Source of the DNA: Marsupella aquatica
Taxonomy: Eukaryota; Plantae; Marchantiophyta
Assembly: GCA_973895155.1 (NCBI GenBank)
Contig: OZ316891.1
Coordinates: 22,587,884-22,651,883, forward strand
DNA: 64,000 nt
Direction: 5' to 3'
In this document: positions 43,465 to 44,923 of the stretch, piece by piece
How the letters are laid out: every line of letters begins with the position of its first letter
Numbering within the stretch: position 1 is the first letter of the stretch
Notes under the pieces: model-generated
What the model saw: only the letters and a program-made list of their open reading frames with translations
Told to the model about the DNA's origin: nothing
Database searches by the model: none
Position numbers and translations under genes: made by a program

Positions 43465-44923
43465 TCATTCAGCAGAGGGAGTCTTGATTTGATTTTGTAC
43501 ACTGTGAGTATAGCTGTTCTCTCCGAGGGGTCCAAAACCTCCGAGGAGGCTCCAGAACTGAGCATCCTCTCCTTCCTCTTCACCATCGTGGATGATTACA
43601 CCATCTACATTTCCTTCATGATTGTTGTCTTTAAGCTGCTGGACCACTGCCATAGCCTTCCCCTTCTCTCCTATGCTTGCTTTGGCACCATTGAACTGGA
43701 AGATGTTGTCCTGAGTGTCCAGAATGAAGATGTCATCGTGGTTGAGGAAGTCTCTGGACACCGGAACCTCTGTCACACGTACGGCCATTCCAGTACCCTT
43801 CACTACAAACATCTTGGGCTCGAAAACCTCCGCCTCCACCTTCTTGAATCCGGAGGCCACCCCTTGAAAATCCCAAGATTACCACAAGTCAGCCATATGA
43901 TTCAGTCTTTGTAACATCATCACCAGCCCAGCATTGGCACAATTTGCACCCAGACAGCGTATTATCTTCAGCCATTGAAGTTCTAATACCCCTAGAAACA
44001 CAAACTATGTCACCGAGAATACAATCCTGAGAGTTTTTTTTACTCTAAGTCCTTCATTTGAATTCTGCAATTGCAAAAGCAATGTCAATCCCTTTGCATC
44101 ATCGATTCCTGAAATGGTGGTGTGCTAAGCTCCTTCAACAATAATCATACAACAACGAATGACTAATTGGATTTATAGCTTCCGGGCACCCGAACCCGAG
44201 CCATGGGATTGACATTCTACAACGATTTCTATGAATTAATCAGAGGTCACTTGGGAAAGCAAACTTCCTACTCTTTGATCACCCACTTTCTCCCCTCGGA
44301 GTACGGAGAAGAACCAACGAATGGATGGATTTAAATGTTCCGGGCACCCAACCCTGAGCGATGGGACCGACATTGTACACATTTCTATGAATCCAAAAGC
44401 AGGATTTGTTACTAATTGCCGCCGATGGGCAGCGGAATCAGAAAAAAAGAACTCTCTAAGAGATCGGAATCCCTGATCTAACGCAGATGCCCAACAAAGT
44501 GACATTCACAAATAGATTTGAGTCATAAAAAACAGAGAATGTAAATAAGGCCACACCTCCTTCTTTGGGGACTATGCAAGGCTTGAAGTAGTGGAGGAAG
44601 AGGTCGGACTCTTGCCCTTGCAGCTCCCTGTACTGGACAGCCTTATCGCCCAGATACTGGTCCAGCTCCACGGTTTTGATTGCAGCAGTGCCCTGCTCGT
44701 CTTGGCTCGTGCTCTTCCCGAGCCAGAAGTGGACGTCATACTTGAGACTGCCGCTCTGGGTTTCTGTTGTCTTCAAGACAATGTACGAGTCTCCGTTGTA
44801 GAACGTCCCGTAGTCGGACTTCTTCAGCGGCACGGGCTTGAAGTCCTCGATCCGCCAGATCTCGATCCCTGCTGCCTTGCCGGCTCCCTGGAACGCTTCA
44901 TCAACGACTGCTCCGTCCCCCAT
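43465..44923 (-). CDS. Short villin/gelsolin-like protein (G1+G2 only), 2 exons: 44923-44557 and 43862-43465, 254 aa
   Basis: The spliced frame reads [87 protein letters not shown] and [12 protein letters not shown] 694-nt GT-AG intron restores the frame, giving 765 nt in total. Confidence 0.85.

What the first reader, a model, noticed from the sequence alone, without database searches (positions are those of the whole stretch)
43465..44923. Stand-alone two-domain (G1-G2) villin, likely a retained retrogene
Plant villins have six gelsolin repeats plus a headpiece and many introns. This gene stops right after G2 ([11 protein letters not shown] plus a short tail), and no G3-G6 or headpiece exons are recognisable in the repeat-filled DNA downstream. 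It has no frameshifts over 254 codons. G1 and G2 are each uninterrupted, in a window where IFT172 and Nup205 are split into many small exons. This suggests a 3'-truncated retrocopy kept by selection. By analogy with gelsolin G1-G2 fragments and lily ABP29, it could be an actin severing or capping protein that lacks the C-terminal regulatory half and bundling activity.
Basis: partly seen in the sequence, partly recalled or inferred. Interest (0 to 1): 0.7.

Follow-up and report, generated by a model that had tools for sequence, protein, structure and literature searches.

The report
Ancient two-domain mini-villin of liverworts
This is a conserved liverwort gene, spliced in RNA of related species, for a cut-down villin with only the first two gelsolin domains; it is predicted to cap and weakly cut actin filaments rather than bundle them, so liverworts carry a dedicated gelsolin-like gene where plants are usually said to have villins only.

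Summary
A two-exon, minus-strand gene (44923-44557, 43862-43465; 694-nt GT-AG intron) encodes 254 aa: gelsolin domains G1-G2 and a short tail. No G3-G6 or headpiece lies in the window. RNA contigs of two relatives lack the intron and run past the stop into non-coding DNA.

It is not a lone young retrocopy of the full-length villin. Orthologues with the same tail and stop exist in Calypogeia fissa (88% identical) and two unnamed datasets. They form one clade (100/99) with three-domain villins of Marchantia and Riccia, separate from Marchantia's full-length villin; a separate origin from that gene is rejected (AU p=0.0005). The short gene therefore predates the split of the two liverwort classes, and likely lost G3 later in leafy liverworts.

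The usual G1-G2 introns are gone and one new intron is present, so a cDNA step is plausible but unproven. The stop falls where lily ABP29 ends. G1 and linker actin contacts are kept; a G2 calcium ligand and basic patch appear lost.

Best reading: a barbed-end capper with weak severing and no bundling (inferred, untested). Ten literature searches found no description. New variant of a known kind; interest 0.5.

The parts
44557..44923 (-). Exon 1 coding part: gelsolin domain G1 (residues 1-122), no internal intron
   Evidence: Sequence; Pfam PF00626 E 5e-15; model of the Calypogeia orthologue matches gelsolin G1 at rmsd 1.0-1.6 A
43863..44556 (-). 694-nt phase-1 GT-AG intron in the G1-G2 linker, at a site not seen in other plant villins examined
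   Evidence: 694-nt skip in RNA contigs of X1 (255 letters on the shorter side) and X2 (29 letters, borderline); a DNA contig of a second species runs 181 nt into it without gaps; no breakpoint between residues 77 and 138 among 260 plant-like villins
43465..43862 (-). Exon 2 coding part: G1-G2 linker (FKKV), domain G2, 25-residue tail and TGA
   Evidence: Pfam E 7e-13; same tail and stop position in P0121, P0240, P0071, P0328
43305..43464 (-). Start of the 3' untranslated region (at least 160 nt; one contig matches again at 42826-42934)
   Evidence: RNA contigs of X1 and X2 run collinearly across the stop to 43305, 43301 and 43354
44924..45218 (-). 5' untranslated region (true start not defined)
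   Evidence: RNA contigs reach 45089 and beyond (X1) and 45218 (X2); contigs cannot show a transcript start

Best explanation
This is an old, conserved liverwort gene for a two-domain (G1-G2) villin derivative that is predicted to bind actin monomers, cap filament barbed ends and sever weakly, without bundling. Origin: a villin duplicate lost G4-G6 and the headpiece before the two liverwort classes split (the clade is shown; the order of losses is inferred). It survives with three domains in Marchantia and Riccia. In leafy liverworts it also lacks G3 and the usual G1-G2 introns and has one new intron; a cDNA copy of an early-ending, ABP29-like transcript would explain both losses at once (inferred, about 45%). 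Mechanism (inferred from conserved residues and published work on gelsolin and ABP29): the FKKV linker and the G2 long helix dock on the filament, and the G1 long helix enters the actin hydrophobic cleft with a shared Ca2+ and stays on the barbed end. With no G3, G6 or tail latch it would cap at low Ca2+. Loss of the D259-type ligand and of the R168/R169 pair would make G2 a weaker side-binder, less tied to Ca2+ and PIP2, tilting activity from cutting to capping.
For: Gene and expression. RNA contigs of two studies skip the intron and cross the stop. Both runs also splice five CT..AC joints of neighbouring genes, so they are RNA. Conservation: 88% identity over 254/254 residues to two Calypogeia proteins and 87% to P0071; 71% to the Marchantia three-domain protein against 64% to its full-length villin. 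3 of 3 listed tail differences in relatives are synonymous. Tree: eight short proteins form one clade 100/99, two-domain forms 100/100, three-domain forms 99/97; the clade is sister to Marchantia full-length villin at only 76/80; AU tests. Shared derived marks of the short clade: a 2-residue deletion and 1-residue insertion in G2, and LGDKA. Residues, numbered via the gelsolin alignment: F28 and F128 (gelsolin F49, F149; PMC13553588), FKKV (FKHV; bioRxiv 2024.09.10.612341), G44/D45/E76 and D88 (G1 Ca2+ sites, numbering recalled) and D166/E188 (D187/E209; PMC13013752) are kept. No acidic residue 9-16 places after G230 in 5 of 5 two-domain sequences, against at least one in 144 of 144 full-length plant villins and 4 of 4 liverwort three-domain ones. 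ABP29 and its versions ending at KLY or after G2 sever weakly, cap more strongly at 41 nM Ca2+ than G1-G3 and stabilise filaments on dilution (PMC4654503).
Against: No biochemistry or localisation exists for any member. No RNA of the window's own species was listed, so splicing is shown in relatives only. dN/dS was not computed because no orthologous coding DNA could be read. The D259 equivalent is assigned by position in a low-confidence region (pLDDT 77 falling to 36-43 over residues 231-254), and Juncus's three-domain villin also lacks acids there. Marchantia's full-length villin also has a reduced basic patch (4 basic residues against 3 here). Usual intron sites come from gene-model breakpoints, not genomic alignments. 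No poly(A) remnant was found. Gelsolin G1-G3 is a potent Ca2+-independent severer (PMC13553588), so weak severing is not certain.
Confidence: 0.6

Rival explanations
1. Origin rival (same function): no retroposition to a new locus. The gene stayed in place, lost introns by cDNA-mediated conversion or one by one, and lost G3 through a stop codon at the G2/G3 exon border followed by decay of the downstream exon.
For: The stop lies at the border codon. No three-domain Calypogeia parent appears among the 120 listed hits of 143-457 aa. No AATAAA or run of 7 or more A within 2.4 kb downstream. RT-mediated intron loss in place is documented in plants (PMC8831610, passages).
Against: All of at least four usual introns in G1-G2 are missing together, and no G3 remnant is detectable; one retroposition explains this economically.
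Confidence: 0.5
2. It works mainly as a G-actin sequestering protein. G2 has lost filament side-binding, so G1 plus linker holds monomers and raises the critical concentration rather than capping long-term.
For: R168/R169 are replaced by T/G and the G1-G2 pI is 4.8 against 5.3-6.3 in full-length villins. G1 alone binds G-actin but not F-actin (PMC13553588). ABP29 raises the critical concentration (PMC4654503).
Against: The G2 long helix keeps E188, K189, K191, K200, D201 and N202, and the FKKV linker is intact. Linker L1 alone can recruit G1 to filaments (PMC13553588).
Confidence: 0.17
3. It is a constitutive, Ca2+-independent severing protein like the caspase fragment G1-G3 of gelsolin, freed from all latches.
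For: The G1 severing surface (F28, F128, long helix) is intact and no G3, G6 or tail remains. Gelsolin G1-G3 severs without Ca2+ (PMC13553588).
Against: Lily G1-G2 severs less than G1-G3, depends on Ca2+ and protects filaments on dilution (PMC4654503). The G2 basic patch is reduced here.
Confidence: 0.12
4. One reading: a 3'-truncated retrocopy taken directly from the full-length villin in this lineage.
For: The usual introns are absent.
Against: Clade with Marchantia and Riccia three-domain genes at 100/99; AU p=0.00045 against grouping the two-domain forms with Marchantia full-length villin; shared indels. The leafy-liverwort full-length villin itself was not retrieved, so this was tested through Marchantia's.
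Confidence: 0.03
5. A dead or dying fragment: the 694-nt stretch is a disrupting insertion, or the gene is the surviving 5' part of a broken villin.
For: The donor site is weak (GTGTGG), and the intron start matches the exon 2 start at 7 of 8 bases, like a target-site duplication, against 2-5 of 8 for five neighbouring introns. Splicing was not seen in the window's own species.
Against: Both exons are open and 88% conserved. The insert is shared with a second species and probably with an 84%-identical one whose gene call starts exactly at exon 2 (P0328). The stop and tail are conserved in five sequences.
Confidence: 0.03

Closest known systems
Lily ABP29 (G1-G2 splice product of villin ABP135; PMC4654503)
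   Same: G1, G2 and the G2-G3 linker, ending at the KLY exon border; no G3-G6, no headpiece; plant villin ancestry.
   Different: ABP29 is an alternative transcript of a full-length gene and adds six residues. This is a separate gene in an old clade, with altered G2 basic and acidic residues.
Plant villins (six G domains plus headpiece; Marchantia Mp1g24640, Physcomitrium, angiosperm VLN1-5)
   Same: About 58-64% identity over G1-G2; nests among them in the tree.
   Different: Lacks G3-G6 and the headpiece; one intron at a new site, against 21-22 introns in soybean villins (PMC10255930).
Marchantia Mp7g09750 / MARPO_0156s0006 and Riccia three-domain proteins (annotated only as hypothetical or gelsolin-like)
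   Same: Orthologous short clade with shared G2 indels.
   Different: They keep G3, an acidic linker and, judging from an older gene model (P0241), probably at least two usual introns.
Gelsolin N-terminal half, fragmin/severin and CapG (three-domain family members)
   Same: Same fold (Foldseek E 5e-30 to actin-bound gelsolin G1-G3); headpiece-less design.
   Different: Two domains only; derived from plant villin, not from these lineages.
Asgard archaeal two-domain gelsolins (2DGel; PDB 7c2g, 7whf)
   Same: Natural stand-alone two-domain architecture.
   Different: Far weaker similarity (E 1e-12 and 4e-11, against 2e-62 for gelsolin G1-G3); unrelated origin by inference, not placed in the tree.

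Membership tests
Gelsolin/villin superfamily | Gelsolin-homology domains | tested here: met
   Pfam PF00626 on both exons; two repeats in orthologues; fold match
Gelsolin/villin superfamily | Ca2+-regulated actin binding, capping or severing | not testable with these tools
   Only residue conservation was checked
Canonical plant villin | Six G domains | tested here: not met
   Two domains; no G3-G6 in the window
Canonical plant villin | C-terminal headpiece | tested here: not met
   No VHP hit
Canonical plant villin | Descent from the streptophyte villin gene | tested here: met
   Inside the 31-row plant clade, 97/97
ABP29-type product | G1-G2 plus linker ending at the KLY exon border | tested here: met
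   The stop aligns without gaps to the Y of Amborella KLY, with TP at the same offset; border from L002 and gene models. The Marchantia short gene has a 5-residue shorter linker, so the match is to full-length villins.
ABP29-type product | Alternative transcript of a full-length villin gene | tested here: not met
   No downstream villin exons; separate orthologous gene in other liverworts
Fragmin/severin/CapG | Three G domains | tested here: not met
   Two here; three in the Marchantia and Riccia orthologues
Retrogene | Parental introns missing | tested here: met
   Sites near residues 52, 75, 154 and 213 (probably also 19) seen as breakpoints in other villins are uninterrupted here; indirect evidence
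Retrogene | Poly(A) remnant or flanking target-site duplication | tested here: inconclusive
   No poly(A) remnant within 2.4 kb; flanking duplications were not searched for; neither is expected to survive at this age
Retrogene | Located away from an intron-bearing parent gene | not testable with these tools
   No whole genome held; neighbours of the orthologues could not be read
Retrogene | Parent is the full-length villin of the same lineage | tested here: not met
   AU p=0.00045, tested with Marchantia's full-length villin as stand-in

The most novel reading that the evidence does not exclude
Liverworts evolved their own gelsolin-like gene from villin in two steps (six domains plus headpiece, to three, to two). 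In leafy liverworts an ABP29-like early-ending transcript was retroposed and fixed as a dedicated barbed-end capper whose G2 no longer senses calcium. Three-domain mini-villins with acidic tails arose separately in sedges, rushes, Euphorbia and Impatiens, so land plants repeatedly reinvented fragmin-like proteins.
Probability: 0.3. Interest if true: 0.68.

Novelty: new variant of a known kind. Interest (0 to 1): 0.5.

Why it matters
Recent papers state that plants have villins but no gelsolins (PMC12674126; bioRxiv 2026.04.22.720131), and a family survey counts one villin in Marchantia (PMC10255930). Short plant forms were known as splice products or uncloned pollen proteins (PMC4654503). A separate gene kept across both liverwort classes gives a natural series: full-length, G1-G3 and G1-G2. 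It includes a single-locus, knockout-ready member in Marchantia (Mp7g09750), so one can test in vivo what G3 and the C-terminal half do and whether capping or severing can be separated from bundling. The chemistry is probably familiar, so the interest is for cytoskeleton and gene-evolution specialists.

Tried and rejected
No whole genome is held for this window, so paralogues and synteny could not be checked. No RNA holder was listed on record for the region; X1 and X2 were guessed RNA and then shown to splice. Run X5 left the gene uncovered although it holds a third of its words; a hole proves nothing, and X6 of the same organism covers it. The metagenome scan gave 56 loci, none closer than 62% over G1-G2 among the plant-like ones, so no orthologous liverwort DNA and no dN/dS. 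Contig depth was not used as an expression measure. Rfam found nothing in the window. Three look-ups of earlier findings returned nothing. Ten literature searches showed no paper on a short liverwort villin; the gene identifiers gave 0 papers. The library lacks most subscription papers, including the original ABP29 paper, and no supplementary files were opened. No complex prediction was run: no actin sequence was in hand, and a G1-actin pass would only echo solved structures. Rejected: the short Psilotum, wheat, moss and Camellia hits as stand-alone genes; they end at usual intron sites or share clusters with longer proteins. Rejected: one common origin of liverwort and angiosperm short villins (AU p=0.002). 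Rejected: the upstream retrotransposon as part of the gene.

Full report
Observation. The minus strand carries an ATG at 44923, a 367-nt exon, a 694-nt GT-AG intron (42% GC against 57% and 50% for the exons) and a 398-nt exon ending in TGA at 43465. The spliced frame is 254 aa. Each exon holds one gelsolin repeat. Searches of the whole window with G3-to-headpiece sequences of four villins and with a G3 HMM found only the gene's own two domains. A HAT-repeat gene begins about 3.7 kb downstream, with tandem repeats in between.

Expression. No RNA run of the window's own organism was listed. Contigs of two other organisms, X1 and X2, are RNA: both show five joints with intron-type ends in the neighbouring FGGY-kinase and HAT genes. 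In X1 one contig joins the two exons across exactly 694 nt with 255 letters on the shorter side; in X2 the joint has 29 letters on one side, which is borderline. A second X1 contig ends in 21 loose letters that resemble exon 2. Contigs of both runs pass the stop and stay collinear with the genome for 110-160 nt; none was seen to splice onward. A DNA run of a related organism (X6) has a gap-free contig over 43348-44043 with 24 differences, so the intron is shared. The unnamed protein P0328, 84% identical to exon 2, begins exactly at the first whole codon of exon 2, which suggests the same intron in a more distant species (inference).

Relatives. Two Calypogeia fissa proteins are 254 aa and 88% identical over the full length; an unnamed 261-aa protein is 87% identical. 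All end QNQIKTP plus three residues, so the stop is conserved in five sequences. Calypogeia is a leafy liverwort, so the window is probably from that group. Next come three-domain proteins of Marchantia polymorpha (Mp7g09750), M. paleacea and two Riccia species, 65-71% identical, ahead of Marchantia's full-length villin Mp1g24640 at 64%. In a 36-row G1-G2 tree, with rows chosen by me from about 460 stored proteins, the eight short liverwort proteins form a clade at 100/99, split into two-domain (100/100) and three-domain (99/97) groups. Its sister is Marchantia's full-length villin at only 76/80. Forcing the two-domain group together with that full-length villin is rejected (p 0.00045), as is joining liverwort and angiosperm short villins (p 0.002). 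Shared indels in G2 agree. Since Marchantiopsida and Jungermanniopsida both have the gene, it predates their split, recalled as roughly 400 million years ago. dN/dS could not be computed. Three of three listed differences in the tail are synonymous, a tiny sample; full-length conservation is the main evidence of selection.

Retrogene question. Among 260 plant-like villins held, gene-model breaks and intron read-through cluster near residues 52, 75, 154, 213 and 257, probably also 19, and none falls between 77 and 138. The 257 site is seen directly in a partly spliced transcript (L002), and the 75 site in genomic contigs of unnamed eukaryotes. Moss fragments show the 213 site. The window gene has none of the internal sites and has its own intron at codon 123. 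An older Marchantia gene model of the short gene starts its villin part at the 75 site and stops just after the KLS border (P0241), suggesting that this orthologue keeps those introns. Intron loss therefore probably happened in the leafy-liverwort branch. The stop aligns with the Y of KLY, one codon before the usual G2/G3 border. That is where lily ABP29 departs from ABP135 (PMC4654503: abstract, methods, results and discussion read, parts 1-4 of 6; the border is read from its primer table). A cDNA copy of such an early-ending transcript would remove G3 and the introns together; loss in place explains it about as well. No poly(A) remnant was found, and synteny could not be tested. A retrocopy cut at its 3' end from the full-length gene is the unlikely version.

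Mechanism. AlphaFold on the Calypogeia orthologue gives two well-folded domains (mean pLDDT 84, pTM 0.51) with a flexible linker and disordered tail; the top structural matches are actin-bound gelsolin G1-G3. Mapped through the gelsolin alignment, G1 keeps F28, the long helix and both Ca2+ sites (ligand numbers recalled), and the linker keeps F128 in FKKV. F49 and F149 form the severing cluster (PMC13553588, passages), and FKHV binds like a WH2 motif (bioRxiv 2024.09.10.612341, part 1 of 4 read). G2 keeps D166 and E188, matching D187 and E209 of the four listed ligands G186, D187, E209 and D259 (PMC13013752, passages). It has no acidic residue where D259 should lie in 5 of 5 two-domain sequences. 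By contrast 144 of 144 full-length plant villins have one (144 of 153 filtered carried the anchor motif), as do all four liverwort three-domain proteins; Juncus's short villin is a counter-example. KGRR becomes KGTG, removing R169, which holds the actin N-terminus in the gelsolin structure. The patch has 3 basic residues against 5-6 in 135 of 138 full-length proteins, but 4 in Marchantia's full-length villin. Lily G1-G2 constructs sever less than G1-G3, cap better at 41 nM Ca2+ and stabilise filaments on dilution (PMC4654503). I therefore commit to a barbed-end capper with weak severing and no bundling, at about 0.6. Every functional step is inferred.

Comparison and novelty. It works like ABP29 but is not a splice product; it descends from plant villin but fails the six-domain and headpiece tests; it is not a fragmin. 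Passages of PMC12674126 and bioRxiv 2026.04.22.720131 say plants have only villins; PMC10255930 (passages) lists one Marchantia member; PMC10969196 and PMC8831610 were seen as passages only. Ten searches of an open-access library showed no description of the short liverwort gene (most hits seen as listings only). Subscription papers and supplementary tables were not seen and could list it. The proteins are in databases as hypothetical or unnamed.

Verdict. A real, conserved gene and a new variant of a known kind. Interest 0.5.

Noticed in passing
P0128, P0169 (Euphorbia), P0141 (Impatiens), P0145 (Carex), P0147 (Juncus), P0152 (Rhynchospora), P0142 (unnamed): Angiosperm three-domain mini-villins of 327-356 aa ending in acidic tails, like Marchantia's. 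They nest in the VLN4/5 clade and arose separately from the liverwort ones. Whether they are separate genes was not checked at DNA level.
   Followed up: partly
window 43855-43863 and 44549-44556: The first 8 intron bases match the first 8 bases of exon 2 at 7 of 8 positions, against 2-5 of 8 for five neighbouring introns; possibly a trace of intron gain by duplication or insertion.
   Followed up: partly
window 46200-50300, minus strand: Frameshifted non-LTR retrotransposon 1.3 kb upstream of the gene, with a weak RVT_1 hit and high copy depth in DNA runs. The C-terminal motifs look like a restriction-like endonuclease type (recalled).
   Followed up: no
window 33950-34230: Looks like a duplicated, decayed fragment of mitochondrial atp1 (recognised from recall); RNA contigs of X2 at very high depth match part of it.
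   Followed up: no
window 29900-33100 and 36100-39800, minus strand: An FGGY carbohydrate kinase gene and a HAT-repeat gene, both spliced in X1 and X2; useful markers for a synteny test.
   Followed up: partly
window 154-1545, minus strand: Uninterrupted 464-aa ORF with an Aminotran_5 hit.
   Followed up: no
window 40520-43165: Several short tandem arrays (periods 32, 45, 73, 86, 109, 139) between the villin and HAT genes; the 73-nt array lies in the likely 3' UTR and differs in length in a relative.
   Followed up: no
window 43498-43503 (H242 region of the tail): All five two-domain sequences keep a Y-x-H motif where other villins have acidic residues; unexplained.
   Followed up: no
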